This document shows, one piece after another, positions 9,876-47,426 of a DNA stretch of 64,000 nucleotides. Position numbers and translations under genes: made by a program. Positions within the stretch are counted from its first letter, which is position 1; each line of letters opens with the position of its first letter. The notes beneath the pieces were generated by a model. It saw only the letters and a list, made by a program, of their open reading frames with translations, had not been told where the DNA came from and did not search any database. The stretch is from a virus, in IMG/VR virus record IMGVR_UViG_3300008050_008852, positions 32,001-96,000 of that record; one strand, written 5' to 3'.

Positions 9876-10822
9876 TGACAACAATTACTCCGCCTTTCAC
9901 TGGCTCATATGCTATAAACCTTCAAGGTATAAATGTTTCGAGTTTTGATTTATTCGGAATGTCGATTTCACCTAAACTTGGAAGAAATGGTATAAAGACA
10001 TTTTTATCATCAAGTACAACAATTCTTGATGTGTCGCAAAATGCTAGAACGTTTTTTGATGATTCAATTCGTCTTCCAAAGCAAATTAGTTCTATTACTG
10101 CCTTATCATCTAGTAACGTTGAGGTAATATCTGACGATACATTTAAGGTTCAACAATTTCCAAATTATATGCTTTCTAGACAAACATTTGGGCTAGAAAG
10201 AAACGATCAAGGTGGTCCTTTTACTGAACTTGATTCGTACAGCGCAGTAAGTTATATCAAAGAGCAAACTGATTATTTGGCACCTGTAATAATTGATTCG
10301 CCATCAACAATAGATATATCAGAATTTTCTGGTGTAATAGAACCATTTGCTCTCCGAAAAGTGATAGATAACGCTTCAACGTTTTTAGGAACCTTTGATG
10401 ATCCTGAACCCACAGGTGTACGAGGTTCTTTGGATTCTGGTATTAGCCAAACAGATAGAAAAACAAAAACAGTAAAGTCAGATAATTTTTATGATATAAG
10501 ACAAAGTACTAGCAATTATTTTGAAGAAGTTGGCCTCCGCCCAGAAGATGAATTATTTGCTGGTGATTCTTTTACACTTGAGGTACCACTAGAATCTGTT
10601 GATATTGTCACCGTAGTACCATTTATTGATACGACATCAATTAATGAATCATATAACAATATAACGAGTGTTGAAATTAAGAATATTTTAATAAGTAGTT
10701 CGCTACGTTCTGATTTACCAAATGGCTTTCCGGGGTTAAATTTTAAAAGTGCACCGACAGGCTTTGAGTATGATAATTCTAGAGGCGTCGATTCAATTAC
10801 ATACGGCGGACAATTAAAGTGA
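9875..10822 (+). CDS. Hypothetical structural protein
   Basis: 315-aa ORF with GTG start, overlapping both neighbours in the baseplate operon. Confidence 0.6.
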   Translation: MTTITPPFTGSYAINLQGINVSSFDLFGMSISPKLGRNGIKTFLSSSTTILDVSQNARTFFDDSIRLPKQISSITALSSSNVEVISDDTFKVQQFPNYMLSRQTFGLERNDQGGPFTELDSYSAVSYIKEQTDYLAPVIIDSPSTIDISEFSGVIEPFALRKVIDNASTFLGTFDDPEPTGVRGSLDSGISQTDRKTKTVKSDNFYDIRQSTSNYFEEVGLRPEDELFAGDSFTLEVPLESVDIVTVVPFIDTTSINESYNNITSVEIKNILISSSLRSDLPNGFPGLNFKSAPTGFEYDNSRGVDSITYGGQLK

Positions 10823-13800
10823 AAAAAAATAGTAGAATATCAAGATATTATGACCTAACAAAAGATTTTGGTGAGTATAAATCGTCTAATTCATTAATTG
10901 GTTGGTGGACATTTAATAATAAGGACTCACCTTCAGCACAACAAATACCTTCAAAAGGAACTACGAGTCTTCCAGGAAAATTTATTGATGGCTGGGATGA
11001 TCAGGTTGTTTTAGGCCCTTCTTCATTTGAATCTCCAACTTTTTTAAAGGGTTTGCAACATTTAAATAAAGCTTCAGCTACTATTAGCAATGGTATTAAA
11101 GGTTTTCAGGTTGATGGTTTTGCAGATCAATCAAGTTATCCGACTAAAACATTTACACTATCAATCACATTTAGAATACTTCAAGATTATCCTCAACCAA
11201 TCGGCGCTGGCGCCGGCGATAAAAAAATTAATATTGCAACTATTTGTGATACCAATCCCGATACCCAAGACGGCCGTTTAGGCTTGTATTTTGATAGTGA
11301 TGGAGCCCCAGGCGGTCTTCCAAGCTTTTCTACTGCCCTTGCAATAGATGATGGTACAGTGAAAATATGGCAGTCCTATTTCGATCCCACACACCCAAGA
11401 TTTTCATCAATAAAACATTTAAGGGAATGGATTAGGATTGATTTTGTTGTTAACGACATCATCCGCGCAGAGTCGAAAGGCTGGTTGGGAAGTCAATATG
11501 CCGAAATATATATTAATGGTTTACCACCAGAGACAAAACAGTCCATCAACACCGCCGCGGTCAGCAGCTTCGACATAACCAAGCTTTTAATTGGGGGGGT
11601 GGAGGACAACTTTGCCCCGCTGGCAGGTAAACCAGGTATTCAATTGGGTGAGGTTGCCATCTTCTCCGCGGCCCTCACATCAAACGAAATTAGTTATCTT
11701 TATGATAAAACACAGTCATCTGAAAATTCTGGAAAATTAACAAATTCTCCAAGATCACAATTGACCTGTGGCGAATGTGAACATGATAGTTATCCAACAA
11801 TTAATCGATCCACTGACTGGAGAAGAACAGGCAGAAGAATACCTGTGTTTTCTGAAGATGAAGGGTTTACGGTACCTACCCAAACCGGCGTAATTAATTA
11901 TCCCACACTATTATTGTCCGGCACAGAAGCCGATGCAGCAATTGGTACAATTTTAACAAATAATAATTCGTTACCAACAATAGAAACTGTTATTGATACA
12001 CCTTCTGGTTCAATTGGTAGATCAAATATTGTTAAATCATATAAAAAATGTAGTTCTACAACAGATTCATCAGATATATACAGACCATTCAACGACCTGA
12101 TCGCCCCAACTAATATTGCGACTCAAAATAGTCATATGGCACACAGTTATCCAGGGTTTACAAATACTCTTGGTGATAGAGTTATAATAGATATTGACAT
12201 AACTCCCACAAGTGCAAAAGTTTTGCGTGTTGTGACTGGATCTGACGGTGAGACATTTGATGGCCCCAATACTTTATCAAGTATAGAAAATACTGGTTTG
12301 GCATATTTTAATTTTGTTAATGGTAATTTTGAATCAATAGGTGGTATAAATTCAGAAACAGGCGTGCGTAGTAACTGGAATTTACCAGGCGCTCGTTCCG
12401 GTTCCGCCTGTATCGGGAATAAAGCTGCATACGATGCCGGCCCCCTATATCAAAAATTTAATTCATTAACTGATGAGGATTGGTTAAAAATCCCACGAAT
12501 ATTTCAGCCCTATTCATCAATTATTTCTCATCGTGGTACGTTTAATCATCCTCATACGACCGACTTTAATAGTTTTCAATTTTTTAAAGGAAAGTCGTCA
12601 GCAGTATTAGATATTGACACCTCCGCCCCACTCTCCGCTCCAACAGCCACCCAGCCTCTTTTTCCAGATCCAGATAGTTGGTTTGAGTCTACAGTCGGGT
12701 ACCCCAACTCTCCAGGCTACGGCGGTTATAATCGCGTTAACAATGAATGGTCTCCATATAATTCTGACGTTTCCGGCCGTGGTTGGTGGTTCTTTAAATT
12801 CAAAAACGATCCAAAAAAATATCCAGACCCGCAGATGAAAACTCCATCGCTAATTTGGAATCGCTCAACAGCCCCTGTAGATTTAGGATTAAAATTTCTA
12901 TCAACACTTTCAACATTAGGTAAACCAATAGTATACACAAATTGGTGTAATAACAGTTTGTTTCATGCTTCTTCTTCCCAAACGTTGAAAATGAGTGATT
13001 ATATTAATTCTCCATTACTTTTAGAATCATTTGAGGTTAATGTTGATGTAGAGGCCAAACGTTTACAGCGCCCTTTTCTTAAGGAGATAGGCTCTGGTAA
13101 ATTTGCAATGGCAAGTAATACAAATAACCACATTGATTGTTTAACATTTTTCTTATTGCGTCAAGAAAATCCACATGTCAATTCTTTTACACCTTTAATA
13201 AGAAGTCAGGGTTCAAAACGTGAATTAGTATCTTATTCAAATCATATTTTTGCTTCTACATATGTTGGATATGATTGGCTTGATAGATCTCGCATTGCAG
13301 TAGATTGGAATACCGGTGACCAAACAACAGTGCCTTATTGTGGTTCTCGAACTTCAAGGGTTTTTGCTGTTCGAGAGGATGAGGTTCTTGATACAGTTGC
13401 TGCAAGCGATTCGTTTTCATATTATAAAAAATCGGACGGCACATCCCAAACCTCCCATGGCCCAAACGGCATATTTTTCTCAAAATTCAATGATTATACT
13501 ATTTTAGGGCATCCAGATCCAGATATCCCCTTGGACACCCGGGATATTAAAGCCTCGAAGCAACCTTTTGAGCAATATGTTACTGCGTCTAAAACAATTT
13601 CAACTATAGCCCCAGTACGAATAACTGAAGCATATGCACAAAAAATAACACCTGTATTACCTTCAATGCAAAGTACAGTGCCTCAAAGGGTTGGGGTTTC
13701 TAATGTTCAAGGACCATTCTTTAATTTTCATACCATGGGCAGCACCATCGATTATTTTTTTAGAAAGACATCAACTCCAATTCAACCACGTTTATTTTTG

Positions 13801-16245: not shown

Positions 16246-16254
16246 GTTTTTATA

Positions 16255-19200
16255 ATGGCAACTGCATCAAAAGGCGAGTTAAGAAAAACCGATATATTAA
16301 AGCTTGAAGATTCAAGTGGTAATATAACAAGAGTTATTTCTCCAAACAATTTACAAGTTGGTTTGGATGATCCGGATTTTTTGTCATCATTGACAGTGAA
16401 GGGTCCAGTCGTCGCACAACTTGGTATTACTGGTTCAATTACACAGGTTACCGATGGTGTTGATTTTCTACAGCCTGGTACAAATATATCAATTACAAAA
16501 AATTCTGACGGTTCATTAACAATTGGGGCTACAGGTTTTCCAGCCACCGCAGCATTGAGCCTTGGCGATGGTCTTGCATATAATGCTGGTACAACGTTTG
16601 ATGGTTCTACTGCTAGAACACTTTCTCCAAAGTTTGTAAACATGGGAGGCTTAGCATCACCGAGTTCAGCTGGATTAAGAATTGATTTTAACAACTTAGC
16701 TACTCGTGCTATAGAAACTGAAGATATACTCTTGTTTGGAGAGACAGACAATGCTGTTTCTTATTTTCCAAAAAAATGTACAGTCGCCGATTTATTAGCT
16801 CTAGGTACAGCAGCAACTCTTACAAATGCAATAACTCTTGGAAATGGAATAGAAGATTCTGCCGGAGCCGCTTCAAGTTATAATAATACTGCTGCTATAA
16901 CATTAGCTATAACTGCAGAATCTTCTAAGGGAATAGGGATAACTTCCAGTGGAGTAAAAATAGATCCATCAACTCTTTCTTCTGCTACAGTAGCTACAGG
17001 AGACAAAGTTTTAATTGGTGACATAAATGATAGTGATAATATAAAATATGTTACTGCACAGTCGATCGCAAATTTAGCAACTGTTGGAACATTAACAAAT
17101 GCCCTCACCATTGGAGATGGTTTACAATTAAACTCAGGCACTACCTTTGATGGAACATCAGCAAGAACCTTAACTGTTCAAGCTGCAGACTCAACAATTT
17201 CTGCGGCTGCTGGTGGAATAAGCGTTTTAAAAGTGCCATCAATACTTTCCCACGGCCAAGGAATCGTAACATTTTCGTATGACGGCTCGTCATCAACACA
17301 AATTCAGGTCGATTTAAGCTCAGCTGGTGGATTAAACTTTAACGGTTCTGATGAAATTAAACTCGATATTAACAATTTGCCTGCCGGCACAATTCCTGCA
17401 GGATCAGACGAAATTTCTGTGGCATTTGGTCCAAATGATACCAGAAAGATAGATATATCAACCTTAGGTTCAGTAATAACAGCTGGTATAAATTCAAGCA
17501 CGGTTTGGATCGATGGCCGCAACAAAGCATATACAACCTCTTCAATAGCAGTATCAAATACTGGTGGATATGCTACATCATATGGTTTAGACAATTATTT
17601 TTATATATCAGGTTCAATAGGTAACATCACAAATTCAGCAAAGATTTCAGTTTTCGGTGGTGATACAGTAATAAGCGGTAGTGCTACTGCTCTTATGGGT
17701 TTATCTGGTTCATTAACTAGATTGCATGATGGCTCTTCATATATAGTCGCTGGTGACGGAATAACCGTTGCTTCATCATCAAATGGTCAAATTACTATTA
17801 CTGGAAACGTTGGTGATATAACTGGCGTCACTGCAGGAACTGGTCTTTCCGGTGGTGGCACATCTGGTGATTTAACTATTACAATAGATGATTCTGTTAC
17901 TGCCACTCTTACAGGCTCTCAGTTTTCTGGAAACGTTGGGGTGACTGGTTCTATAGGATCAACCTCTACAGTAACTTCACCGGCGCTATCTGGTTCCTTA
18001 ACACGTCTTCAGGATGGTTCATCCTATCTTCGTGAAGGTGCAAATGTTACAATATCTTCATCCTCTGCTGGTTATATTACTGTAGCGTCTACAAATACTA
18101 ACACAACATACACTGCTGGTACCGGACTCGATTTGACAGCTACAGAATTTAGTGTAGACGACTCTATTGTAGCCACCCTCACCGGGTCTCAGTTTTCTGG
18201 AAATATTGGAGTTACCGGCTCAATAGAAGCGACTAGCTTCTTTAGTGGCAGCATGTTTAAAGCACCTGTCTTATCGGGATCGCTTACGAAGCTTCATGAT
18301 GGATCTTCTTATCTTGTAGCTGGAAGTAATATTACCATTGCTACAGCTTCTTCAGGGGCAGTAACTATTGCAGGTGCTGCTTCAATGACAGCAGTGTCAG
18401 GATCAGCTTCCGTTACAGATGTTTCCACGATTAATTTTTCCAAGGCCGGTATTATTCAAGATTTAGGTTCGGGTGATATTGCTATTACAAGTTCAATAGG
18501 CGTGCCAGAAGATGGAACTTATGGCGATGGGTTATTTACTGATTTCAAAGAAGCAACACCTGTAGGAACAGCTGTGGATAGATTTAACGAAGTGCTAAAA
18601 GCACTTGCTCCATCACCTGCTCCATCGTTAGATGATCTAAATTCAAAAGAGACTGGCGCAACTACATTACTTTCATTTGGTGCAAGTAATAACCAGCAGG
18701 GTGCAATACCTCCATACTTTTCAGTAGATTCCTCCGCTGGACTAAAATCTGCGGTAGACGTAAATGGTAGTTATACAGTTGCAACAAGTAGCAACAATAT
18801 TCGAATTGCTACTTTTACCGGTACTACACACATTAGTGGTGTCTTAAATGCAGATGTTTCCTCCAACAGTCAAGGCAATAATATTCAGAATTATCCATTC
18901 TATTCGTTTGGCGATGGCGATTCAGGAGTGTTAAGATTAATTGTTAATGGAAGCACAATTAAAGAGATTGATCTTACATCTAATTTAATTGGTAGTGGCA
19001 CCTCCGGATTAGGAACAGGATCGTATGTAGACGCCAATGGGTCTGGATTTATTCTTCTTTCAACTGCTACCACAGGAACATTTTCCAACGGTAATCCCTT
19101 TAATTCATTCAAGCATCGAACAGGACAATACGTGGTGGCCCATCAAAGTCAAAGGGATGGATGGAATTATGCTCAAATTCAGCATGTTAGAACCGGTTCT

Positions 19201-22023
19201 ACACAAACGACAAATTATATTGAGTGGGTAAACGACAGCAATTCAGATGCATTAACCTCAGCCGGGGAATCTATAAGTTTCGCTGGCAGCGGGAGTGCTG
19301 ACCTCTCCGGAATTACTTATTATCGTAGTGGAACAGCAACATACAAGGTACGTGTTACCAATGCCTATAAATATACATACGACAATAACAACATTACGTT
19401 TAACACCACAAATAGTGCAGCAGCTAGTTCTAGTCCAACATTTTCCCTCAGTAGCCAATTTAAACCATCAATCGATACTGGCGTAGGGGAGACACAAAAT
19501 AAAGTATTACACCTCACAGGATCGTCAACAGTTAATGCCACTTATTTTTTAAGCGGTGCAGTTACCGCTAGTGTAAATGTAACAAGTCCACTTAAGTCCA
19601 ACTTATCCGCCGGCGGCCCTGCAGTGGTAGGCGAAATCCTGATGTACAATAGCACTGATACCAACACTGCGATTGCTGAAACATTTATGTCAGAAAGTTA
19701 TAGGTTACAATCCGGTTCCTTCGATACTCAGGCTACCGTTACAAACGCAAGTTATGATTGGAATTCATCAATTCATATGACCGGATCTAATACCAATTAT
19801 TTAAATGGTCTTCAATATTATAGGGATCGCTTATATTCTCCCTTGAATACTACTAATGCTGGTGACTTTTCTACATTTGTAAATGGACCTACCAATCCGG
19901 ATTATTCGGGTATTTCTGGTTTACGCACCTTTTATCGAAAATTCCAAAACACATCTGGTGTTCCAGTACGAGATATATCCTACCTTATTACTGGTAATGG
20001 GACAATTGAAGATGCTGGAACAGTTGTCGGGGCAAATAATAAATTCCGTGTATTCTTTAAATTACCAAGTAATGGCACCAACAATTCAGGGTGGATGGAT
20101 GTTGCATCAGCGTTTACATATAACGAAACAGGTAATAGAGAAGGGTGTTATATAGGGACGTTTACCGACACTGTAGGTACTACAAATTACGTAACATGGG
20201 GCACTGGTTCAATTGCTAACAACGAATTTATTGTGGCTAAAGTTGAGGCCGACGCATCTTGGACGGGTTATATTGACAGTATGGCAGTTTCTTTTGGTGC
20301 GGTGGGTTCAGTAATATCAGCGCCAAATGTCAATAATATCGACGTCAATACTGGCGGTACTGGAGCTGAATTAAGTTTTGGATCGTCCCTTGCACTTGCG
20401 GAGTACACTAATGTAGGAACAGCCGCCGGTAATTCAGCTGTGAATGCCAATGGTACATATAACATATCAGGAAACAGATATGGGATATATGGGCCTACAA
20501 TTACTTCCCGCGTCGGTACTATCAATGAGACTACTACTAGTCCTGGTAACAGTTATCCTGTCGATGCATTCGGCGGTGGTAATGCTAATACCGGTTCACT
20601 TAAATTAGAGGTGAATGGTGCTATTATTCAAACAACCAATTTGGCAACATTTACAAACGGTAGTGATTTTAATGGCGATGGTTCAGGATTTACACTCACT
20701 GCCGCCATACCCGGCGAAGATAGTAGTGAATTACCAGACTATACTAAATTTTATCGTACCGGCATTTACACTGTGGTTTCTGCCTCACAGGTAGATGGTT
20801 GGAACTATGCCAGGGTGACCCATACTGTTACTGGAAGTGATTATGAATCTACATATGTTGAATGGGTCAATGATATCTCTAATCCTTCAATTTCATTAAA
20901 TGATGTAACAATTGGAAATTTTGGTTCCGCCACTTCAAATTCTCTTTCAGGAATTAAATATTTTATATCGCCTTCTGGATCATTTAGAATGAGAACATCT
21001 AATGTATACAAGTATGTTTATAGTAGTAATTCAAACGCCATTAGTTTCCCAACGACAACAAATTCCACCATAACTTCTATTACAGGAAGTGGCCCGGGCG
21101 TAAATACAATCACAACTGCGGCAACCTATACTACCTTACCAAATTTAAATACAGGTGTCGCAACAGCTTATGATTACGATCTTTTCATTACAGGTGCTTT
21201 TAGTTTCGATCGAGCAACATCCATTCCTGGTGGAACGGCATATACGGCTACGGTGAGTGGTAGAGTGAATCATCCATTAAAAGGTAATACAACAACTTCA
21301 TCAACACAAAGTAATAAAGTGCTGGCTGCAACAATATCTGACACATCTACTACTACATCTGAATCCTTTACAGGCGAAGCAAAAAGATTAATTTCGGGAT
21401 CATATACCATCCAAGCAAATGTAACAAACGGTGCGAATGCATGGAATAGCACAATTTCACTAAACGGCGTGGATGCTTCTTATAATACGGGTCTTGCGAT
21501 CTATAATGGAGAATTAGCATCTCCTCAAAACATTGGTTTATCTAGTGATAAAGGAGACTTTAGGAATGTGTCTGAAGGCGGTTCCCTCGAAGCACCAACG
21601 GGTAATCCGGATTATAGTTCGTTAACAAATCCCACCCGCGATTATATTCGATCATTTACACAAACTGTCGCAGGCTCAAAATCTGGGTTTGATGTTACAA
21701 TCACAGGAACAGGTACAATCGTCTCAGCCGGTACAAGTTTAGCAAGTGGTAATAACTTTAATGTATTTTTCAAATTACCTCAAACATCTGCAGGATTCTC
21801 CACTGGGTGGATGGATCTTGCAACGGCATTTGCAACAGGTCAATATGGCGACAATGCCGGTTGTTTGAATGGCACCCTAACCAGCAATATTGCTGGTGGT
21901 GCAACCAATACTGCAACACTGGGTGTAAAATCAGTGGATCAGAACGAATATATTGTTGTTAAAATTGTTGCCGATAAAACATGGACCGGAAACCTCGAAT
22001 CCGTGTCAGTGTCATGGTCGTGA
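16255..22023 (+). CDS. Giant tail-fibre/appendage protein with Gly/Ser/Thr repeats and a duplicated C-terminal module
   Basis: 1922 aa; repeats such as ATLTGSQFSGNIGVTGSI and TTYTAGTGLDL; two copies of a module containing DGWNYA...EWVND...FFKLP...GWMD...AD..WTG. Confidence 0.7.
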   Translation: MATASKGELRKTDILKLEDSSGNITRVISPNNLQVGLDDPDFLSSLTVKGPVVAQLGITGSITQVTDGVDFLQPGTNISITKNSDGSLTIGATGFPATAALSLGDGLAYNAGTTFDGSTARTLSPKFVNMGGLASPSSAGLRIDFNNLATRAIETEDILLFGETDNAVSYFPKKCTVADLLALGTAATLTNAITLGNGIEDSAGAASSYNNTAAITLAITAESSKGIGITSSGVKIDPSTLSSATVATGDKVLIGDINDSDNIKYVTAQSIANLATVGTLTNALTIGDGLQLNSGTTFDGTSARTLTVQAADSTISAAAGGISVLKVPSILSHGQGIVTFSYDGSSSTQIQVDLSSAGGLNFNGSDEIKLDINNLPAGTIPAGSDEISVAFGPNDTRKIDISTLGSVITAGINSSTVWIDGRNKAYTTSSIAVSNTGGYATSYGLDNYFYISGSIGNITNSAKISVFGGDTVISGSATALMGLSGSLTRLHDGSSYIVAGDGITVASSSNGQITITGNVGDITGVTAGTGLSGGGTSGDLTITIDDSVTATLTGSQFSGNVGVTGSIGSTSTVTSPALSGSLTRLQDGSSYLREGANVTISSSSAGYITVASTNTNTTYTAGTGLDLTATEFSVDDSIVATLTGSQFSGNIGVTGSIEATSFFSGSMFKAPVLSGSLTKLHDGSSYLVAGSNITIATASSGAVTIAGAASMTAVSGSASVTDVSTINFSKAGIIQDLGSGDIAITSSIGVPEDGTYGDGLFTDFKEATPVGTAVDRFNEVLKALAPSPAPSLDDLNSKETGATTLLSFGASNNQQGAIPPYFSVDSSAGLKSAVDVNGSYTVATSSNNIRIATFTGTTHISGVLNADVSSNSQGNNIQNYPFYSFGDGDSGVLRLIVNGSTIKEIDLTSNLIGSGTSGLGTGSYVDANGSGFILLSTATTGTFSNGNPFNSFKHRTGQYVVAHQSQRDGWNYAQIQHVRTGSTQTTNYIEWVNDSNSDALTSAGESISFAGSGSADLSGITYYRSGTATYKVRVTNAYKYTYDNNNITFNTTNSAAASSSPTFSLSSQFKPSIDTGVGETQNKVLHLTGSSTVNATYFLSGAVTASVNVTSPLKSNLSAGGPAVVGEILMYNSTDTNTAIAETFMSESYRLQSGSFDTQATVTNASYDWNSSIHMTGSNTNYLNGLQYYRDRLYSPLNTTNAGDFSTFVNGPTNPDYSGISGLRTFYRKFQNTSGVPVRDISYLITGNGTIEDAGTVVGANNKFRVFFKLPSNGTNNSGWMDVASAFTYNETGNREGCYIGTFTDTVGTTNYVTWGTGSIANNEFIVAKVEADASWTGYIDSMAVSFGAVGSVISAPNVNNIDVNTGGTGAELSFGSSLALAEYTNVGTAAGNSAVNANGTYNISGNRYGIYGPTITSRVGTINETTTSPGNSYPVDAFGGGNANTGSLKLEVNGAIIQTTNLATFTNGSDFNGDGSGFTLTAAIPGEDSSELPDYTKFYRTGIYTVVSASQVDGWNYARVTHTVTGSDYESTYVEWVNDISNPSISLNDVTIGNFGSATSNSLSGIKYFISPSGSFRMRTSNVYKYVYSSNSNAISFPTTTNSTITSITGSGPGVNTITTAATYTTLPNLNTGVATAYDYDLFITGAFSFDRATSIPGGTAYTATVSGRVNHPLKGNTTTSSTQSNKVLAATISDTSTTTSESFTGEAKRLISGSYTIQANVTNGANAWNSTISLNGVDASYNTGLAIYNGELASPQNIGLSSDKGDFRNVSEGGSLEAPTGNPDYSSLTNPTRDYIRSFTQTVAGSKSGFDVTITGTGTIVSAGTSLASGNNFNVFFKLPQTSAGFSTGWMDLATAFATGQYGDNAGCLNGTLTSNIAGGATNTATLGVKSVDQNEYIVVKIVADKTWTGNLESVSVSWS

Positions 22024-22032
22024 GTGTGAATA

Positions 22033-25000
22033 ATGGGATATGATGCCAAAACAGAAAGACTAGTATCAATAAAGAAGTTAGCTGGTAAAGCCCAAACCTC
22101 TAATGATAAAGGTTTATCAAATGAAGGGCTTCCTTCTGGGCTTACGGTCGCCGCTGCCTCTGTTTTTGGTGAATCAATTTCAACAACTCCTGCATCTACT
22201 GCCTTATATGATATTACTGGTAAAGTTGAGTTTCTTCGCCTACAGGTAACATTCATTCCCGGTACCGGCACACCAACCGGCCGCCATGGTTTTGAATTAA
22301 AACTTCCTGCCGATTATGAAGCAAATTCTTCTAATTCATCTAAAGGTACTTACCCTTTTATTAATGATCAAACGATTAATATAACGTCTGGGGCCTTGCA
22401 GCTTGTACCACCAGCATTTGCTATAGCATATGAAGCAAAACCATTCTATGGAGGTTCTTCGGCTAAAGATTCTGGTACTCAAATTCCTGTTTTGGACTCC
22501 CGGGATTGGTATTTAGATTATTTTAATGGAGTATTTTTTCAGCAGGATCCACCAGGTACTGGTGATCATGCTAATAACCCTGACTATGTTGAAGCATTTC
22601 TTTATGTTGGTGATATGCTAGATACTGTAGTCGCCAACGCTGGTGGCACCGGAGGTGCAGATGCAGACGCTCAATATTTAGTACTTCAGGCCACATCATC
22701 TTTAGGTGCTGAAAGAGTATTCAATCCTTCTACTGGTATTTCTGTCGTAGATGCCGGCCCCGGCGAAAATTATACACTTAGCATAAATAACGCTATTGTC
22801 GCTACCCTCACCGGGTCTCAGTTTTCTGGAAATATTGGAGTGACCGGTTCTATTGGTGCAACAACTGTAGTCACCTCACCGGCCATCACCGGTTCTTTAA
22901 CACAACTTCAAGACGGTTCCTCATACTTAATCGCTGGTTCTGGAATTACAATAGCTTCTGCCTCAAACGGTGCAATCACTATCACAAATGATGGTACAGT
23001 TGGAGATATTACTGGAGTAACGGCTGGTGCTGGATTAAGTGGTGGAGGGACATCTGGTACAGTAGCGTTAAATATTGACAATTCTGTAGTTGCTACTCTT
23101 TCTGGTTCTCAGTTCTCTGGAAATATCGGAACAACAGGGTCAATTGGATCTACTACAGTCATAACTTCGCCGGCATTTTCAGGATCTTTAACAAATCTTC
23201 AAGATGGCACTTCATATCTTGTTGCTGGAAACAACATTCAGATAGTAACAGGATCTTCTGGCGCAATTACAATTACTGGTACTTCAACTGGGGACATAAC
23301 CTCAATTGTTGCAGGAGCAGGGCTCACTGGCGGCGGCGCCTCTGGTGACGTTACATTAAATATAAATGACGGTATTGTAGCAACACTAACAGGATCTCAA
23401 TTCTCTGGAAACATCGGAGTGACTGGCTCAATAGAAGCAACCAGTTTTTTCAGTGGTAGCATGTTCAAAGCGCCTATTTTGTCTGGGTCACTTACAAAAC
23501 TTCATGATGGATCTTCTTATCTGCTCGCCGGCCCCGGAATATCCATAACCTCTGCCTCATCTGGCGCAATTACAATTACAAATGATGGAACAGCTGGGGA
23601 TATAACGTCCGTCATAGCCGGAACAGGCTTGAGTGGTGGTGGCTCATCCGGTGATGTAACATTGAATATAAATGATTCAGTTGTTGCAACATTAACAGGA
23701 TCTATCTTTAGTGGTAATGTCGTAGCACAATCAGGACTTACAGGCTCATTGCAGTCATTGACTGATGGTACTTCTTATTTACGGCCCGGTAATGTTAATG
23801 TTACTATCACAACAGCATCCGCTGGTTATATTTCAATATCTTCGACCGATACCAACACAACATATACGGCTGGAGATGGTCTAGATTTAAGTGGTACAGA
23901 GTTTAGCATAGATCTTAAGTCTTCTGGCGGCTTAAAAATAGATTCTACAGAGTTGGCTATTGATAATTCTATTGTCGCCACTCTTACAGGTTCTCAATTT
24001 TCTGGTAATATCGGAATAACTGGGTCAATAACTGCGACTTCTGGTATTTCTGGATCTCTTACACATCTTTCTAATGGGACCAGCTATCTAATTGCTGGAA
24101 ACAATATTCAGATTTCCACCGGTTCGAGTGGAGCTGTTACTATCACCGGGACTTCAACTGGAGACATAACCTCAATTGTTGCAGGAGCAGGGCTCACTGG
24201 CGGCGGCGCCTCTGGTGACGTTACTCTAAGCATCGACGATTCAGTGACCGCTACGTTAACAGGTTCAGTGTTTAGCGGTATCATCTCAGCTCCGGCACTT
24301 TCTGGTTCATTGACTACATTACAAAATGGTTCACCATTTTTAATATCAGGTACCGGAATATCTCTAACAACCGGCTCTTCTGGAGCAATAACAATAAATT
24401 CAACCGCCGCCGGCGGATCTGGTGATCAAAATGCCGAATTTATTGTTGCAGCCCCAACCGGCTCACTACCATCTGCTAAAACAATATCAGCAGGGTCCGG
24501 AATAACAATAACTACCGGTTCCAATTCAATGATAGTATCTGCAACGTCAATATTGTCAAAGGGTCGAAGTAAAGAAAGTTACTTTGTAACAGCTTCTCAT
24601 CCGGCTGTAACAGAATTCTCAACACCTTTGTCTAATTATTCTGACGTATTACAGGCACCAGATCTTATTGATATTTTGGTTAATGGAGTATTATTACATT
24701 CCGGCTCTTCTGCTCAAATTGCTTCTAGTTTAATGGATTATAGAATTGCCTCTTCCGGTTCACTTGAATTTTCGTTTGGTTTAGAAACAGACGACGTCGT
24801 GGACGCAATTATAATAGTAACTTCATCCGGTTCAATTGATAATACAGCAAGTTACTTATTGCAGCAAGCAACTTCATCATTACCAAATAGTCGAACATTC
24901 ACGACAGGTTCTGGTACAACGCTGCAAGATTCAGGCCCTCAGGGCACTTTTGTTTTTGATACAAGTCCCACAACAAATTTATACGTTTTGACTGCTTCTC

Positions 25001-25206
25001 ATGCTCTGCTTAATTCTCTCACTATCCCCAATATTAATTTTGTAATTAACGAAAGAAGTTTTCATAAAAATCAAGTTTTTTTGAACGGTGTGTTGATGGC
25101 TTCTGGCTCATCTCTTGACTATACTATTGACACTCCTGCTACAGGCTCACTGACGTTTAACCTTCCCCTTGAGGAAGATGACGTAGTAATAATTAGACAG
25201 ACTTGA
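22033..25206 (+). CDS. Tail-fibre-like repeat protein
   Basis: 1057 aa; about six copies of the ~90-aa unit ATL(T/S)GS.FSG...(S/T)GSL..L..G.SYL.AG; two C-terminal (V/L)NGVL..SGS..DY...GSL.F...LE.DDVV domains. Confidence 0.7.
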   Translation: MGYDAKTERLVSIKKLAGKAQTSNDKGLSNEGLPSGLTVAAASVFGESISTTPASTALYDITGKVEFLRLQVTFIPGTGTPTGRHGFELKLPADYEANSSNSSKGTYPFINDQTINITSGALQLVPPAFAIAYEAKPFYGGSSAKDSGTQIPVLDSRDWYLDYFNGVFFQQDPPGTGDHANNPDYVEAFLYVGDMLDTVVANAGGTGGADADAQYLVLQATSSLGAERVFNPSTGISVVDAGPGENYTLSINNAIVATLTGSQFSGNIGVTGSIGATTVVTSPAITGSLTQLQDGSSYLIAGSGITIASASNGAITITNDGTVGDITGVTAGAGLSGGGTSGTVALNIDNSVVATLSGSQFSGNIGTTGSIGSTTVITSPAFSGSLTNLQDGTSYLVAGNNIQIVTGSSGAITITGTSTGDITSIVAGAGLTGGGASGDVTLNINDGIVATLTGSQFSGNIGVTGSIEATSFFSGSMFKAPILSGSLTKLHDGSSYLLAGPGISITSASSGAITITNDGTAGDITSVIAGTGLSGGGSSGDVTLNINDSVVATLTGSIFSGNVVAQSGLTGSLQSLTDGTSYLRPGNVNVTITTASAGYISISSTDTNTTYTAGDGLDLSGTEFSIDLKSSGGLKIDSTELAIDNSIVATLTGSQFSGNIGITGSITATSGISGSLTHLSNGTSYLIAGNNIQISTGSSGAVTITGTSTGDITSIVAGAGLTGGGASGDVTLSIDDSVTATLTGSVFSGIISAPALSGSLTTLQNGSPFLISGTGISLTTGSSGAITINSTAAGGSGDQNAEFIVAAPTGSLPSAKTISAGSGITITTGSNSMIVSATSILSKGRSKESYFVTASHPAVTEFSTPLSNYSDVLQAPDLIDILVNGVLLHSGSSAQIASSLMDYRIASSGSLEFSFGLETDDVVDAIIIVTSSGSIDNTASYLLQQATSSLPNSRTFTTGSGTTLQDSGPQGTFVFDTSPTTNLYVLTASHALLNSLTIPNINFVINERSFHKNQVFLNGVLMASGSSLDYTIDTPATGSLTFNLPLEEDDVVIIRQT

Positions 25207-43942: not shown

Positions 43943-44599
43943 ATGTTAAAAATTGCTCATTTAGCAGATATACATTTTAGAGGTTTATCACGTCATGACG
44001 AATACCGTTATGCGTTTGAACAGTTTTTCGATCAGTGTGATAAGATAAAACCAGATCATATAGTAATTGCTGGTGATATTGTACACTCTAAAACGCATGG
44101 TATATCACCGGAATTAGTTGACATTTTAACGTGGTGGTTTAAAACCATGGCTTCAATTGCTCCAACACATATTATACTGGGAAATCATGATGGTTTAATG
44201 CATAATAAAAGTAGGCAAGATGCAATTAGCCCAATTGTTAATGCAATTGATTCTAGTAATTTATACCTATATAAGGAATCTGGCAATTATTTAGTTGGTG
44301 ACGATATTTGTTTTAATGTATTTTCGTGTTTTGATGAAGATAATTGGGATAAAGTAGTACCAGTACCTGATAGAATTAATATAGCACTTTATCATGGTGC
44401 CGTGAAAGGCAGTGAAATTGAGACAGACTGGATAATTGAAGGTGAGGTTGAAGCAGCTATATTTGATGGTTATGATTTTGCAATGATTGGTGATATTCAT
44501 AAACGCCAAACTGTTTCGTCTAGATGGTCTACAAAAGAAATAGATGAAACGGAATTAGAGGGTTATATAGCCTCTGGTTGGGAAATTGTTAATGAGTAA
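43943..44599 (+). CDS. Mre11/SbcD/gp47-like metallophosphoesterase nuclease, N-terminal fragment
   Basis: Motifs AHLADIH, IAGDIVH, LGNHD, ALYHG and GDIHKRQ; the next motif (YPGS) is missing and appears in the following ORF. Confidence 0.88.
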   Translation: MLKIAHLADIHFRGLSRHDEYRYAFEQFFDQCDKIKPDHIVIAGDIVHSKTHGISPELVDILTWWFKTMASIAPTHIILGNHDGLMHNKSRQDAISPIVNAIDSSNLYLYKESGNYLVGDDICFNVFSCFDEDNWDKVVPVPDRINIALYHGAVKGSEIETDWIIEGEVEAAIFDGYDFAMIGDIHKRQTVSSRWSTKEIDETELEGYIASGWEIVNE

Positions 44600-44602
44600 T
44601 GT

Positions 44603-47176
44603 ATGAGTAAAATAAAAATACGTAAAAAGCTTGGTCATATAAAATATCCAGGTTCAACAACACAACAAAATTTTGGTGAGTCGATTCAAAAAGGCTGGCT
44701 TTTATGGAAGATTGAGTCTAAGAATAATTTTTCAAGTGAGTTTATTGAACTGAAAAATAATAGCCCGTTTATAACACTCGATTGGTCTGAGATTGATACT
44801 AGCAACGACAGTAACCATATTATACCTTTTGGTGCCAGAATCCGCTTAAAACACCCTCAAGATATCCCGCGAGCAGAAGTTAAGCAGTTTAAGTCGTTAT
44901 TAAGAGAGAAATTTGGGGCATCTGAAATTGTTACAAGGGTTGAGGCCCTTCCAGTAAAAGAAAAGATGAAAATGTCTGATGAACAAGTAATTAATTTTCG
45001 TGATTACGGTGTTTTGTTGGCATTATTTAAAGAATTTCATATTGATAAGCAATATGATGAAGATATGTGGGAGCTTATTGCCTCCAGGTTAAAAAGATAT
45101 TGTGAGATGATTCCAAAGGCAGATTCTGCGCGCGGAACCAAGTGGTCAATTGAAAAAATGACATTTGATAACATGTTTGGTTATGGTGAAGGAAATATTA
45201 TTAATTTTGTTGAACTAAGCGGTGTTGTAGGTCTATTTGGTCGAAATAGAGTCGGCAAAAGCTCAATTCCTGGTACAATAAGTTATGGTTTATTCAATAC
45301 CTCCGATAGAGGCTCATTAAAGAATCTTCATATTATTAATACTAGAAAAAATTATTGTAAAACTGAAATAGATATCGCAATTGATGGTAAAAAATATAAA
45401 ATTCAACGCCAATCGGTCAAGAAGGTATCAAGAAAAAGTTCTATTAGCGCATCAACTCATTTAAACATATTTGAATTAAATGATCAAGGTGAAATTACCA
45501 AGGACATAACTGGAGAACAACGCCGGGACACAGATGTAGTACTTTCTAAGCTGATCGGTGATAAAGACGATTTCTTTTTAACAACATTTGCCTCTCAAGG
45601 TCAAATGAATGCTTTTATTCAACAACGCGCCACATCTAGAAAGGCTGTATTGGCTAATTTTCTTGATTTGGCCGTATTTGACACACTTTATGAATTAATA
45701 CATAAGGATGCTAGTTATATTAAATCTAAATTAGCAAAAATTCCTGAACGAAATTGGGGATCAATTATTTCTGATACTGAATGTGATATTATTGAGAATA
45801 AAGAACAAATACAAGTATTAGAATCAGAGACATCAAGCCTTCAACAACGCTTAAACGGGCTTCGACTTGAATTAAGTGATATTAACCCAAAGAATATTAT
45901 CACACGTCATGAAGTGGTACGAAAAGAAAAAAAATTAAAAGAAATATCCAATAGGTTAATAAACGTTAATACAAAAATTGTTGATATAGAAGAATTAATA
46001 ACTGATTATGATAGAAAGATAAAAAAAGCAGAGTTATTTGAATTATCTTTTCCGCTTGAGGAATTAGAACAAAAGCTTCAGGAACAATGTGTTCTTGAGC
46101 GCAATCTATTAACAATAAAGCATAAATTAGAATCAGAAAAGAATACACTCAAACGCCAACGTGAATCTGCAAAAATATTAAAGGCTGTTCCTTGTGGCGA
46201 TGTGTATCCAACTTGTAAATTTATTAAAAAGTCACATAAAGATGCAAAGATAATTGATGAACAAATTAATAGTGTTAACGAGATTAAAAAGTCAACAAAG
46301 ATAATTCAACAATCGTTTAATAGATTAATTGATCAAAAATTAGGCGATAAAATTAATTCATATCGCAAAATTGTAAAGTCGGCGACTGAAACACGCCTAT
46401 CAAAAACATCGTTAGAATTTGATTTGGCTGCATTACGAAAAGAAAAGAGTGAACTTGAAGAATCAGAAATATTAGTGTCAGATCAATTGGTCGTAATGTC
46501 ATCACAATTAATAACTGAGTCTGATAATCCGGATATTTCCATTTTAACTAAGAAAATTCAGGACCTTGAAGATTCAATTAGGAATAATGACGTTTCTAGA
46601 TTGTCATTAAGTGAAAAAAACGGTATTGCAAAAGCAAAATTAGAGCAATTAAAAGAAGAAAAGTCCGATTATGAGTCAACCCTTGGTGATTGGAGAGTTT
46701 ATGACGCTTTATTGATGGCTACTAGTAAGCGTGGGGTACCTCTTCATGTACTTAATTCTAGACTTCCAAAAATTAATGCTGAAATTGCAAAAATTTTAGG
46801 TGATAGTACAAATTTTTCTGTTACACTGGAAGCGCCGATAGATTCTAATGAAATGAATATATACATAGATTATGGTGATTCATCTCGCCCAATTGAATGT
46901 GCTTCTGGCATGGAAAAAATGTTATCGTCATTAGCTATTCGTGTAGCGTTAATAAATATATCTACACTGCCAAAATCAGATATCCTTATAATTGATGAAG
47001 GGTTTGGCTCACTTGACGATAATAATGTAGAAGCTTGTGGAAAATTACTACAGAGTTTAAAAAATTATTTTAAGACAATTTTTATTATTTCGCATGTAGA
47101 TGCTGTAAAAGATAGCGTCGATAATTTAATTGAAATAACAAAAAAAGGAGTTGATGCTTATGTTCGTGCAATTTAG
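44603..47176 (+). CDS. Fusion of the Mre11/SbcD C-terminal part with a Rad50/SbcC/gp46-like ABC ATPase
   Basis: N-terminal YPGSTTQQNFGE.IQKGWLLW; Walker A GRNRVGKSS; Q-loop ASQGQ; coiled coil with CGDVYPTC; signature ASGMEK; Walker B LIIDEGFGSLD; H-loop IISH. Confidence 0.9.
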   Translation: MSKIKIRKKLGHIKYPGSTTQQNFGESIQKGWLLWKIESKNNFSSEFIELKNNSPFITLDWSEIDTSNDSNHIIPFGARIRLKHPQDIPRAEVKQFKSLLREKFGASEIVTRVEALPVKEKMKMSDEQVINFRDYGVLLALFKEFHIDKQYDEDMWELIASRLKRYCEMIPKADSARGTKWSIEKMTFDNMFGYGEGNIINFVELSGVVGLFGRNRVGKSSIPGTISYGLFNTSDRGSLKNLHIINTRKNYCKTEIDIAIDGKKYKIQRQSVKKVSRKSSISASTHLNIFELNDQGEITKDITGEQRRDTDVVLSKLIGDKDDFFLTTFASQGQMNAFIQQRATSRKAVLANFLDLAVFDTLYELIHKDASYIKSKLAKIPERNWGSIISDTECDIIENKEQIQVLESETSSLQQRLNGLRLELSDINPKNIITRHEVVRKEKKLKEISNRLINVNTKIVDIEELITDYDRKIKKAELFELSFPLEELEQKLQEQCVLERNLLTIKHKLESEKNTLKRQRESAKILKAVPCGDVYPTCKFIKKSHKDAKIIDEQINSVNEIKKSTKIIQQSFNRLIDQKLGDKINSYRKIVKSATETRLSKTSLEFDLAALRKEKSELEESEILVSDQLVVMSSQLITESDNPDISILTKKIQDLEDSIRNNDVSRLSLSEKNGIAKAKLEQLKEEKSDYESTLGDWRVYDALLMATSKRGVPLHVLNSRLPKINAEIAKILGDSTNFSVTLEAPIDSNEMNIYIDYGDSSRPIECASGMEKMLSSLAIRVALINISTLPKSDILIIDEGFGSLDDNNVEACGKLLQSLKNYFKTIFIISHVDAVKDSVDNLIEITKKGVDAYVRAI

Positions 47177-47426
47177 TGATATACGAATTATAAAAGATGA
47201 AAATTATCAAAAGGTACCATTATCATGCGATGTTTGTGATACAATGTTATGTGTTTTTGATATTATGGATTATAAGAAATATGAGTGCTGCGCCAATTGT
47301 TCATTGATGATTGCTCACCCAAACGCAGAAAAATGGCTTAATGGCTGGCGTCCTTCAAAGAAAGAAATTGATAGAGTGGTAGAAAACCAGAATAATACGC
47401 CTATTTATATCATGAGAGGTTTGTAA
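47160..47426 (+). CDS. Small zinc-binding protein
   Basis: CDVC...CCANC and WLNGWRP; ATG 47160 follows AGGAG. Confidence 0.6.
   Translation: MFVQFSDIRIIKDENYQKVPLSCDVCDTMLCVFDIMDYKKYECCANCSLMIAHPNAEKWLNGWRPSKKEIDRVVENQNNTPIYIMRGL

What the first reader, a model, noticed from the sequence alone, without database searches (positions are those of the whole stretch)
44480..44700. Mre11 nuclease domain split by a single in-frame stop, with an acidic tail and basic head at the break
Seen: GDIHKRQ ends ORF 43943 and YPGSTTQQNFGE opens ORF 44603. In SbcD/Mre11 proteins these motifs are normally only a few residues apart. Between them sit an acidic tail (EIDETELEGYIASGWEIVNE) and a basic head (MSKIKIRKKLG). 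The ORFs are in the same frame, separated by TAA-TGT, within the repeat ATGAGTAA-TGT-ATGAGTAA (44592-44610). No intein splicing residues or homing endonuclease are present. Established precedents for split phage enzymes are Aeh1 nrdA (non-spliced reassembly) and T4 gene 60 (ribosomal bypass). Inference: the two charged peptides form an intein-free heterodimerising latch that reassembles the nuclease; alternatively, stop readthrough yields one Mre11-Rad50 chain.
Basis: partly seen in the sequence, partly recalled or inferred. Interest (0 to 1): 0.8.

Follow-up and report, generated by a model that had tools for sequence, protein, structure and literature searches.

The report
Two-piece phage Mre11-Rad50 with clasp
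A marine phage makes its DNA-repair nuclease, one Mre11-Rad50 chain in its nearest relatives, as two proteins whose acidic and basic ends are predicted to zip into a small hairpin; this looks like the scar of a selfish-endonuclease insertion, a kind of split first noted in 2009, so it is real but not new.

Summary
ORF 43943-44599 carries Mre11/SbcD motifs up to GDIH plus a 29-aa acidic tail. TAA-TGT-ATG follows. ORF 44603-47176 then opens with a 14-aa basic head, YPGS, the rest of Mre11 and a Rad50/SbcC ATPase. An independent metagenome contig holds the same junction, so the TAA is real.

The nearest relatives outside its own 88-96% group encode one contiguous 1040-1045-aa chain with 12 residues between GDIH and YPGS.

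Readthrough is not supported. The closest relative with DNA (88% identical) and three distant split relatives overlap the two ORFs as NTGA, out of frame. The window's in-frame stop and its 8-nt repeat come from a 2-nt indel.

Both ORFs are under strong purifying selection. The co-fold passed its controls. An AlphaFold2 model puts the break at the tip of a beta-hairpin in a small strand-helix-hairpin module.

The cassette sits in unrelated core lineages (AU test p 1e-4). Other relatives hold a Zn-finger/Vsr-like or TnsA-like endonuclease gene in the same gap, with a decay series down to nothing.

Best reading: this is an endonuclease-less relic of a 'fractured gene', reassembled by charged tails. 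The same kind of split, in an SbcD-like gene, was published by Dassa et al. 2009, and the tail mechanism by Crona et al. 2011. This scan has already found it on other DNA.

The parts
43943..44599 (+). N-fragment gene: Mre11/SbcD phosphoesterase motifs ADIH (43964-43975), AGDIVH (44069-44086), GNHD (44180-44191), YHG (44390-44398) and GDIH (44489-44500), then the tail and a TAA stop
   Evidence: Metallophos, 47.7 bits; phrog_100; profile hits to solved SbcD/Mre11 chains; coordinates. dN/dS against L104 is 0.043 over 189 codons.
44510..44596 (+). Acidic C-terminal tail of the N-fragment (residues 190-218). It is absent from contiguous relatives. The model shows strand 195-201, helix 202-210 and strand 214-218.
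   Evidence: contiguous relatives lack it; homologous tails in 40 other N-fragments; AF2 secondary structure; residues 190-202, 205, 208, 211-216 and 218 lie in the predicted interface; charge; dN/dS 0.167.
44597..44602 (+). Junction: TAA stop plus a TGT spacer. It lies at the predicted hairpin turn. Relatives have an NTGA stop/start overlap here.
   Evidence: an independent contig bridges it; the turn is at model residues 219-222.
44603..44644 (+). Basic N-terminal head of the C-fragment (MSKIKIRKKLGHIK). In the model it forms strand 223-229, pairing with the last strand of the tail.
   Evidence: identical in P0121 and P0122; 27 heads, median charge +5; residues 2-20 in the interface; 0 non-synonymous and 2 synonymous differences against L104.
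44603..47176 (+). C-fragment gene: head, YPGS (44645-44656), the last strands of the nuclease domain and the capping region, then the Rad50/SbcC ATPase. The ATPase has Walker A GRNRVGKSS (45239-45265), the Cys pair CGDVYPTC (46193-46216), SGMEK (46904-46918) and LIIDEGFG (46985-47008).
   Evidence: phrog_77, E 5.7e-49; weak match of the YPGS region to T. maritima Mre11, E 0.05; dN/dS 0.03-0.05.
44510..44638 (+). The cassette as a whole: 43 codons, including the stop, that stand where the nearest contiguous relatives have 7 residues. The net gain is 36 codons, or 108 nt.
   Evidence: Comparison with P0123-P0137 and with L001 and L002.

Best explanation
The phage's single-chain Mre11-Rad50 (SbcD-SbcC) gene is truly divided into two translationally coupled genes. 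The cut lies inside the nuclease domain, in the loop between the GDIH metal-binding motif and YPGS.

A 108-nt cassette at the cut does three things. It adds an acidic strand-helix-strand tail to the N-fragment. It provides the stop and the restart. It adds a basic strand head to the C-fragment.

The two polypeptides are made separately and reassemble without splicing. Most of the interface is the ordinary interior of the Mre11 fold. The tail and head add a beta-hairpin 'clasp' whose tip is the break point (inferred from models).

The cassette is most likely what a free-standing homing endonuclease insertion left behind after the endonuclease gene was lost. It has moved between, or been exchanged among, phage lineages (inferred from phylogeny and from relatives that still hold the endonuclease gene). 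The in-frame TAA is an accident of a 2-nt indel and has no role.
For: (1) The split is real and under selection. An independent contig bridges the junction. dN/dS against L104 is 0.043 for the ORF1 core, 0.032 and 0.053 for the two parts of ORF2, 0.167 for the tail and 0 for the head.

(2) Two polypeptides are made, not one. In L104 (88% aa identity) the ORFs overlap as ATGA, with the C-fragment out of frame with the N-fragment. L082 (ATGA), L083 (TTGA) and L068 (GTGA) do the same. The window differs from L104 by a 2-nt indel at the tail end.

(3) The added peptides are conserved. 46 of the 120 listed N-fragment-length homologues stop soon after GDIHxxQ, and 40 of them carry a homologous tail (R.....IDE..L..Y, then GWEI or AEVI). 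31 of the 150 best 50%-identity cluster representatives are C-fragments starting M-x-K-(I/V)-K-I-R-x-K-..., 117 are contiguous and 2 are unclear. Median net charge is -7 for tails (n=41) and +5 for heads (n=27).

(4) Structure predictions agree. The co-fold of ORF1 with ORF2 residues 1-185 scored 0.92 in each of 3 runs, and the best of 3 controls scored 0.00. That mark was reached by 58 of 80 solved complexes and by 2 of 110 mismatched pairs. The runs agree in at least 97% of contacts and the partner's pLDDT is at least 67. My own alignments were used, so those counts hold only roughly. Mre11 structures are solved, so the pass may partly reflect likeness, because these are two halves of one fold. 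The AF2 model of the chain read through has mean pLDDT 84.5. Its insertion runs strand 195-201, helix 202-210, strand 214-218, turn 219-222, strand 223-229, with 10-residue block pLDDT values of 70-84 across the insertion.

(5) The origin points to an endonuclease. L003 is split at the same site with a homologous tail and head, and holds a 305-aa Zn-finger plus TnsA-like endonuclease ORF in the gap. A second lineage split in the same loop shows a series. L213 and L221 hold a 298-aa Zn-finger plus Vsr-like ORF, L222 a 195-aa truncated copy, L211 a remnant of about 180 nt that keeps the ORF's 3' end, and L214 nothing, with an ATGA overlap.

(6) The cassette has been exchanged between lineages. 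The window and P0001 nest (98* SH-aLRT) in a 7-row clade with 5 contiguous genes. Holding the 11 type-A cores together costs 244 lnL units, p-AU 9.7e-5. The tree was built on 67 of the 206 rows, chosen as the split rows plus their nearest contiguous neighbours, with the tail columns left out. The window's tail is 73% identical to that of P0009 although their cores are only 56% identical.

(7) There is published precedent. Dassa et al. 2009 described an SbcD-like locus with a Vsr-like ORF, no intein, and 25 C-terminal plus 9 N-terminal extra residues (passages read). Crona et al. 2011 showed that oppositely charged tails are essential for the split Aeh1 NrdA (abstract and passages read).
Against: No RNA, protein or binding measurement exists for this phage. 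Every structural statement is a prediction.

The window itself has no endonuclease gene at the site. None of the TnsA-like family was found in its 128-kb record, but that search also rang in no control genome, so it says little.

Two contiguous proteins, P0270 and P0210, carry a tail-like plus head-like insertion as an internal loop. The module could therefore predate the split.

The lineage with tail LGYREYEE and head MKKL(V/I) is split with almost no clasp, so the long clasp may help rather than be required. In Aeh1 the tails were not needed for the two halves to associate.

Except for P0009, type-A tails are less similar to the window's tail (27-46%) than their cores are to its core (55-63%). 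No clear Shine-Dalgarno sequence lies 5-15 nt upstream of the ORF2 start. The cassette's GC content (31.1%) does not differ from its flanks (33.3% and 32.3%).
Confidence: 0.75

Rival explanations
1. The strand-helix-hairpin module is an old internal mini-domain of some Mre11-Rad50 fusions. On this reading the gene split at the hairpin tip by ordinary mutation (a stop plus a nearby start), with no mobile element. Endonuclease genes later settled in the gap that already existed.
For: Contiguous proteins P0270 and P0210 hold a tail-like plus head-like insertion, with 51 residues between GDIH and the GS of YPGS in P0210. 28 of the 102 contiguous representatives measured have an intermediate loop of 25-26 residues ending KPW(I/V)(A/G)YPGS, like the heads. 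Free-standing endonuclease genes do favour intergenic gaps (Crona et al. 2011 discussion).
Against: The junction is the same word, NTGAGYAAR (stop TGA inside a start plus Ser-Lys), in types A and B. The module is scattered over unrelated cores (AU p 9.7e-5). The window's nearest relatives (P0123-P0137; the 16 listed range from 52 to 64% identity, P0127 is a 587-aa fragment) have the short loop. A one-base change at an NTGA overlap would re-fuse the halves, so the contiguous long forms may be secondary.
Confidence: 0.15
2. The in-frame TAA is read through or bypassed, giving one Mre11-Rad50 chain.
For: ORF1 and ORF2 share a frame and are 3 nt apart. The read-through chain folds well in a model.
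Against: The arrangement is out of frame in L104 (88% identical), L068, L082 and L083. TAA is the phage's commonest stop, used by 19 of 39 genes. ORF2 has its own ATG, and Met-Ser-Lys is conserved across split forms. A GAG-to-GAG hop within the repeat would land directly before another TAA (read from the sequence).
Confidence: 0.03
3. The gene is a pseudogene inactivated by a nonsense mutation.
For: A stop codon lies inside a catalytic domain that is contiguous in most relatives: 76 of 80 IMG/VR loci.
Against: dN/dS is 0.03-0.05 on both sides at dS above 1. The same two-ORF layout is found in P0001, P0121, P0122 and L104, and in 31 of 150 cluster representatives. The extra 36 codons are conserved.
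Confidence: 0.03
4. The stop codon is an assembly or sequencing error.
For: None was found. The window is a metagenomic assembly.
Against: Contig record 24 of run X4, from another study, is identical over 44523-44673. Close relatives have the same split.
Confidence: 0.01

Closest known systems
Intein-less 'SbcD-like' fractured gene from Lake Gatun GOS data (Dassa et al. 2009, Nucleic Acids Res 37:2560, PMC2677866; passages read)
   Same: It is the same enzyme type, split into N- and C-terminal ORFs without an intein. Extra residues sit at the fracture, 25 on the upstream ORF and 9 on the downstream ORF, flanked by consecutive conserved SbcD motifs. It is found in phage-like environmental DNA.
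   Different: Their locus holds a Vsr-like endonuclease ORF between the halves, whereas the window has only 3 nt. I could not see their Supplementary Figure S2, so I have not shown that their 25+9 residues are homologous to this tail and head, or that the break point is identical. They described one locus. Here the split is seen in 31 of 150 cluster representatives and is polyphyletic.
Phage Aeh1 NrdA-a / mobE / NrdA-b, reassembled through tails (Crona et al. 2011, Nucleic Acids Res 39:1381, PMC3045599; abstract and passages read. Friedrich et al. 2007 is recalled only.)
   Same: An essential enzyme is cut inside its catalytic region by a free-standing endonuclease insertion. The new C- and N-terminal extensions have opposite charge. 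There is no RNA or protein splicing.
   Different: The polarity is reversed: in Aeh1 the C-tail is basic (pI 10.4) and the N-tail acidic (pI 3.8). The Aeh1 tails had no database relatives and act in dimerisation of heterodimers. Here the tails form a conserved family and are predicted to pair with each other as a hairpin. Here the endonuclease gene is gone. Function is untested.
T4 topoisomerase genes 39 and 60 with mobA and the 50-nt bypass insert (named in Crona et al. 2011; bioRxiv 10.1101/2022.08.31.505936 seen as a search listing only; Bonocora et al. 2011 recalled only)
   Same: A small insert in an essential phage gene is tied to a homing endonuclease and is tolerated by a special way of making the product.
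   Different: T4 gene 60 uses ribosomal bypass of a gap within one mRNA. Here there is an ordinary stop and restart, there are no matched take-off and landing codons that would work, and relatives are out of frame.
Split inteins in fractured genes (Dassa et al. 2009)
   Same: The locus layout in relatives is half gene, endonuclease gene, half gene. The two ends carry complementary charges.
   Different: The tail (29 aa) plus head (14 aa) is far too small for an intein fold. There is no Cys/Ser at the upstream junction and no His-Asn plus Cys/Ser/Thr at the downstream one. Pfam gave no intein hit.

Membership tests
Mre11/SbcD nuclease (calcineurin-like phosphoesterase) | A phosphoesterase domain recognised by a curated profile | tested here: met
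   ORF1 matches PF00149 at 47.7 bits against a cut-off of 21.5 and phrog_100 'SbcD-like' at E 6.5e-14. The A1 profile hits 15 distinct solved SbcD/Mre11 sequences, E 1e-9 to 6e-6.
Mre11/SbcD nuclease (calcineurin-like phosphoesterase) | Metal-binding motifs DxH, GD..H, GNHD, H and GxxH, followed by (Y/F)PGS (motif names recalled) | tested here: met
   ADIH, AGDIVH, GNHD, YHG and GDIH lie on ORF1, and YPGS on ORF2. T. maritima Mre11 aligns GHIH and YPGS 12 residues apart (the YPGS match is weak, E 0.05).
Rad50/SbcC ABC ATPase | Walker A, signature and Walker B motifs separated by a long coiled coil with a Cys hook | tested here: met
   phrog_77 'SbcC-like' matches at E 5.7e-49 over residues 182-849. 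GRNRVGKSS, SGMEK, LIIDEGFG and CGDVYPTC are present. Pfam SMC_N (26.5 bits) and SbcC_Walker_B (20.3 bits) fall below their cut-offs of 40 and 27. The hook is Cx6C, not CxxC (the CxxC motif is recalled).
Fractured gene / gene in pieces made by a free-standing homing endonuclease | A conserved enzyme gene broken into two ORFs at a point that is contiguous in relatives | tested here: met
   76 of 80 IMG/VR loci are contiguous, 3 are split and 1 is cut by a contig end. All of the nearest relatives P0123-P0137 are contiguous.
Fractured gene / gene in pieces made by a free-standing homing endonuclease | An endonuclease gene between the two halves | tested here: not met
   In the window only TGT separates the ORFs. 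The feature is met in relatives L003 (TnsA-like, PF08722, 27.2 bits against a cut-off of 26.5) and in L213, L221 and L222 (Vsr-like, PF03852, E 7.8e-5, below its cut-off). The window is therefore filed as a relic of this kind, not as a complete member.
Fractured gene / gene in pieces made by a free-standing homing endonuclease | Presence or absence of the insert that does not follow the host-gene tree | tested here: met
   The AU test rejects one clade for type-A cores (lnL difference 244, p 9.7e-5). Starred branches force at least 5 changes for type A.
Tail-mediated reassembly of a split enzyme (Crona et al. 2011) | Extra C- and N-terminal extensions of opposite charge at the break | tested here: met
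   The window's tail has charge -5 and its head +6. Family medians are -7 (n=41) and +5 (n=27).
Tail-mediated reassembly of a split enzyme (Crona et al. 2011) | The two fragments associate | tested here: inconclusive
   Prediction only. The co-fold scored 0.92 against a best control of 0.00. The pass may reflect likeness to solved Mre11 folds.
Tail-mediated reassembly of a split enzyme (Crona et al. 2011) | The tails are required for activity | not testable with these tools
   This needs deletion mutants and enzyme assays. A near clasp-less split lineage is a caution.
Intein / split intein | A HINT-fold insert of about 130 aa or more, with Cys/Ser at its start and His-Asn plus Cys/Ser/Thr at its end (features recalled) | tested here: not met
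   The insert is 43 codons. It starts with Thr-Val (Tyr-Leu in type B) and ends Gly-His before Ile-Lys-Tyr. Pfam gave no intein family.
Programmed stop-codon readthrough or ribosomal bypass | The frame relation and signals are conserved in relatives | tested here: not met
   L104, L068, L082 and L083 have out-of-frame NTGA overlaps.

The most novel reading that the evidence does not exclude
The empty clasp cassette is itself the unit that spreads. On this reading it is a 108-nt module that can be dropped by recombination into the GDIH-YPGS loop of Mre11-Rad50 genes only about 55% identical to one another. It keeps the enzyme working as two chains. It also destroys the target site of the endonucleases that attack this loop, so it acts as an immunity allele, much as the T4 gene 60 insert is thought to act against MobA (recalled). 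If so, the 29+14-residue pair is a naturally portable, host-independent heterodimerising clasp.
Probability: 0.2. Interest if true: 0.55.

Novelty: new member of a known kind. Interest (0 to 1): 0.3.

Why it matters
The case shows the end state of a homing-endonuclease invasion of an essential gene. The selfish gene is gone, but the host enzyme stays permanently in two pieces, held together by peptides that came with the invader or were recruited at the cut.

The tail/head pair is short and conserved, and it occurs in many divergent Mre11-Rad50 backgrounds. That makes it a candidate natural split-protein clasp and a convenient system for testing the tail idea of Crona et al. 2011 on a second enzyme.

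For annotation, the two ORFs should be called together as one split SbcD-SbcC, not as a truncated SbcD plus an odd SbcC. The split itself was noted in 2009 and has been found repeatedly by this scan, so the gain here is documentation, not discovery.

Tried and rejected
Readthrough or bypass was rejected on comparative grounds and on stop-codon usage.

An intein was rejected on size, junction residues and the lack of any Pfam hit. Alternative genetic codes were rejected because the window tiles into long ORFs under table 11 and uses all three stops.

The 8-nt repeat was rejected as a signal because it is absent from L104. The cassette showed no compositional difference from its flanks.

A search for a trans-acting TnsA-like endonuclease in the phage's own 128-kb record found nothing. 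The same search also rang in none of the 14 control genomes, so it is uninformative.

The L003 endonuclease-like ORF has only one weak relative in the phage collection, an 'endonuclease' of Bacillus phage Moonbeam.

No RNA holder was listed for the stretch, so expression could not be examined. Runs X2 and X3 hold contigs that end at or begin next to the stop but do not bridge it.

Several viral-contig scans gave no split loci. P0093 and P0216 found nothing. P0015 and P0222 found only contiguous relatives. DNA of other type-A split relatives (P0002, P0005, P0008, P0009 and others) was therefore not obtained, and co-conversion tracts could not be looked for.

Pairing of the short 'type C' tails with the short heads seen was settled only for the six loci.

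Only Dassa et al. 2009 holds 'fractured gene' together with 'SbcD'. No paper holds 'Mre11-Rad50 fusion' together with 'phage'.

Full report
WHAT IS THERE. The window is part of a 128-kb virus record with tightly packed genes on the + strand. Around the finding the gene order is RuvC-like resolvase, primase, the two ORFs in question, two small ORFs, large terminase and portal.

ORF1 (43943-44599, 218 aa) is a calcineurin-like phosphoesterase of the SbcD/Mre11 kind. It carries the motifs ADIH, AGDIVH, GNHD, YHG and GDIH. After GDIHKRQ it continues for 29 residues of net charge -5 and stops at TAA.

Three bases later ORF2 (44603-47176, 857 aa) begins with MSKIKIRKKLGHIK (net charge +6). It then has YPGSTTQQNFGE, the rest of the Mre11 nuclease and capping region, and an SbcC/Rad50 ATPase.

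IS THE STOP REAL? A 27.9-kb contig of run X1 is identical, but X1 may be the source of the window. A 151-nt contig of run X4, from another study, covers 44523-44673 with no difference and bridges the junction. Contigs of X2 and X3 end at or start next to the stop and do not bridge it. TAA ends 19 of the 39 tiled genes of the window, and gaps of 1-4 nt or overlaps between genes are the rule here.

WHAT RELATIVES LOOK LIKE. The C-fragment's closest relatives, P0121 (96%) and P0122 (91%), are also 857 aa with the identical head. The next 16 (P0123-P0138; 45-64% identity) are contiguous chains with GDIHKRQYLNxxKTIAYPGS, 15 of them of 1040-1045 aa and one (P0127) a 587-aa fragment.

Of the 80 best IMG/VR loci, 76 are contiguous, 3 are split (L068, L082, L083) and 1 is cut by its contig end. 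In the metagenome scan L104 is split, 7 loci are contiguous and 3 are too short to tell. None of the 26 readable loci from species-representative genomes is split.

A profile search of 1.84 billion cluster representatives gave 1919 hits. Among the best 150, 31 are C-fragments that start with a head, 117 are contiguous and 2 are unclear. Among the 120 listed proteins of N-fragment length, 46 stop soon after GDIHxxQ. Ten have a tail like the window's (type A: RWSYKEIDExxLExYxxxGWEI). Thirty have type B (YRxxExxIDExDLxxYPxAEVI). Six have a very short tail (LGYREY...). Types A and B align without gaps (R.....IDE..L..Y), so they are one family.

READTHROUGH IS NOT THE MECHANISM. L104 is 88% identical in the N-fragment. 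Its tail ends ...GWEIVSENNI and its stop TGA overlaps the ATG of Met-Ser-Lys (ATGA), which puts the C-fragment in another frame. The window differs by a 2-nt indel that ends the tail three codons earlier at TAA and, by accident, restores a common frame and creates the repeat.

L082 (ATGA), L083 (TTGA) and L068 (GTGA) have the same overlapping junction. The junction word NTGAGYAAR is shared by types A and B. In type B the tail codons for (A)EV(I) spell GAGGTG 5-8 nt before the start, a Shine-Dalgarno-like word. The window has no clear one, so coupling by termination and reinitiation is inferred.

BOTH HALVES ARE KEPT BY SELECTION. Between the window and L104, dS is 1.2-1.5. dN/dS is 0.043 for the ORF1 core, and 0.032 and 0.053 for the two parts of ORF2. 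For the tail it is 0.167 over 29 codons. The head has no amino-acid change and two synonymous changes. This excludes a pseudogene.

HOW THE HALVES PROBABLY FIT. The co-fold of ORF1 with ORF2 residues 1-185 scored 0.92 in three runs against 0.00 for the best of three controls. The interface takes in tail residues 190-202, 205, 208, 211-216 and 218 and head residues 2-20. The tool's caveats apply: my own alignments were used, and the two chains are halves of a fold with solved relatives, so the pass partly shows likeness.

The model has mean pLDDT 84.5 and pTM 0.74. It gives strand 195-201, helix 202-210, strand 214-218, a four-residue turn that is exactly stop-Cys-Met-Ser, strand 223-229 and strand 232-235, with 10-residue block pLDDT values of 70-84 across the insertion. 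The break therefore sits at the tip of a beta-hairpin in a small added module.

Charge complementarity holds across the family: tails have median -7 (range -11 to 0, n=41) and heads median +5 (range 0 to +7, n=27). In T. maritima Mre11, GHIH and YPGS are 12 residues apart, as in the contiguous phage genes. The module is thus an insertion into a short loop of the catalytic domain.

WHERE IT CAME FROM. L003 is a 484-kb uncultured phage whose core is only 36% identical. It is split at the same place with a type-A-like tail (EDELEKYLNSGWKL) and head (KYRVKRVW). Between the halves it has a 305-aa ORF with zinc-finger repeats and a TnsA-like nuclease domain.

A degenerate pattern for the short-tail lineage found 28 IMG/VR loci, of which 22 are contiguous (YLGYRETSDGEKKPWIAYPGT) and 6 are split. 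L213 and L221 hold a 298-aa zinc-finger plus Vsr-like ORF in the gap. L222 holds a 195-aa truncated copy. L211 holds about 180 nt that still encode the ORF's last residues. L214 holds nothing, with an ATGA overlap. L210 ends too soon to tell. That is a decay series from an occupied gap to an empty one. It makes the empty gap in the window readable as the last stage.

THE CASSETTE DOES NOT FOLLOW THE GENE TREE. On trees of the nuclease core, with the tail columns left out, the window and P0001 sit inside a clade of contiguous genes (97* in a FastTree of 206 rows; 98* in an IQ-TREE quick tree of 67 rows). Type A occupies at least 5 places forced by starred branches. The 67 rows were the split rows, their nearest contiguous neighbours and a spread of others. 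L003 and L004 were left out for their long branches.

Forcing the 11 type-A cores into one clade costs 244 log-likelihood units, p-AU 9.7e-5. The window's tail is 73% identical to that of P0009, whose core is 56% identical and whose sister is the contiguous L030. The other type-A tails are less similar than their cores, so not every case looks recent.

In the same metagenome runs, contigs of relatives match the GDIH region and then run on into contiguous-type loops (loose ends at 44500-44509). Split and unsplit alleles therefore co-occur.

WHAT SPEAKS AGAINST, OR COMPLICATES. Two contiguous proteins carry the whole module internally: P0270 (...EEGWKVIEVGEECQTNKRRYRIRKR...) and P0210. In addition, 28 of the 102 contiguous representatives measured have a medium loop ending KPW(I/V)(A/G)YPGS. 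The module may be older than the split, or these may be re-fusions, since one base at an NTGA overlap would do it. I could not root the tree to decide.

The short-tail lineage works, or at least persists, with almost no clasp. In Aeh1 the tails were needed for activity but not for association of the halves. I therefore rate the clasp as probably helpful but not shown to be required.

COMPARISON WITH WHAT IS KNOWN. Dassa et al. [quoted passage not shown] It had 25 C-terminal and 9 N-terminal residues absent from other SbcD-like proteins. This is the same kind of locus, and probably the same family. Their supplementary alignment could not be opened, so identity of site and peptides is not shown.

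Crona et al. 2011 showed for Aeh1 NrdA that such oppositely charged tails are essential. They predicted that tail-like sequences would be found on other fragmented genes.

Earlier notes of this scan describe the same split in at least 30 other genomes, with an endonuclease gene, a glycosyltransferase gene, a small Cys-rich gene or nothing in the gap. I used them as leads and checked the paper, the hairpin and the decay series myself.

VERDICT. The feature is real. It is ordinary in mechanism (stop and restart, non-covalent reassembly) and is a member of a published kind. What this window adds is a clean endonuclease-free end state only 3 nt wide, nested among contiguous relatives, with an accidental in-frame stop that invites a readthrough reading the comparative data reject.

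Noticed in passing
L213:1921-2817, L221, L222:1460-2047, L211, L214 (viral contigs): A second fracture in the same Mre11 loop, with a minimal tail (LGYREYEE) and head (MKKL(V/I)PW). The gap shows a full decay series of a zinc-finger plus Vsr-like endonuclease gene: 298 aa, then 195 aa, then a remnant of about 180 nt, then none.
   Followed up: partly
P0270 (1089 aa) and P0210 (668 aa), proteins: These are contiguous Mre11-Rad50 chains that carry a tail-like plus head-like module as an internal loop. They are either ancestors of the split or re-fused descendants.
   Followed up: partly
window 46193-46216 and 46904-46918: The Rad50 part has a CGDVYPTC (Cx6C) pair where a CxxC zinc hook is usual, and SGMEK where LSGG is usual (both usual motifs recalled). 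The same Cx6C appears in contiguous relatives L001 and L002.
   Followed up: no
window 47151-47426: A 91-aa Cys-rich ORF (CDVCD...CCANC) overlaps the end of ORF2 by 26 nt. It is conserved in the same position in L001 and L002. PHROGs gave no hit.
   Followed up: no
window 44462-44509, table 7: In all four metagenome runs, contigs of related phages match only the GDIH region and then continue into contiguous-type loops. Split and unsplit alleles therefore co-occur in the same samples.
   Followed up: no
P0283 (1779 aa), P0235 (1416 aa), P0279 (887 aa): Two homologues are unusually long, and one has an unrelated N-terminal stretch before the Mre11 C-part. These may be further insertions or fusions in this family.
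   Followed up: no
window 10819-25206: Three very large consecutive ORFs (1808, 1922 and 1057 aa) lie upstream in the same strand block. They were not examined.
   Followed up: no
window 44510-44644 against L104: Synonymous divergence is lower in the tail (dS 0.72) and head (dS 0.34) than in the flanks (dS 1.2-1.5). The counts are small. The cause could be nucleotide-level constraint for coupling or a more recent exchange of the cassette.
   Followed up: no
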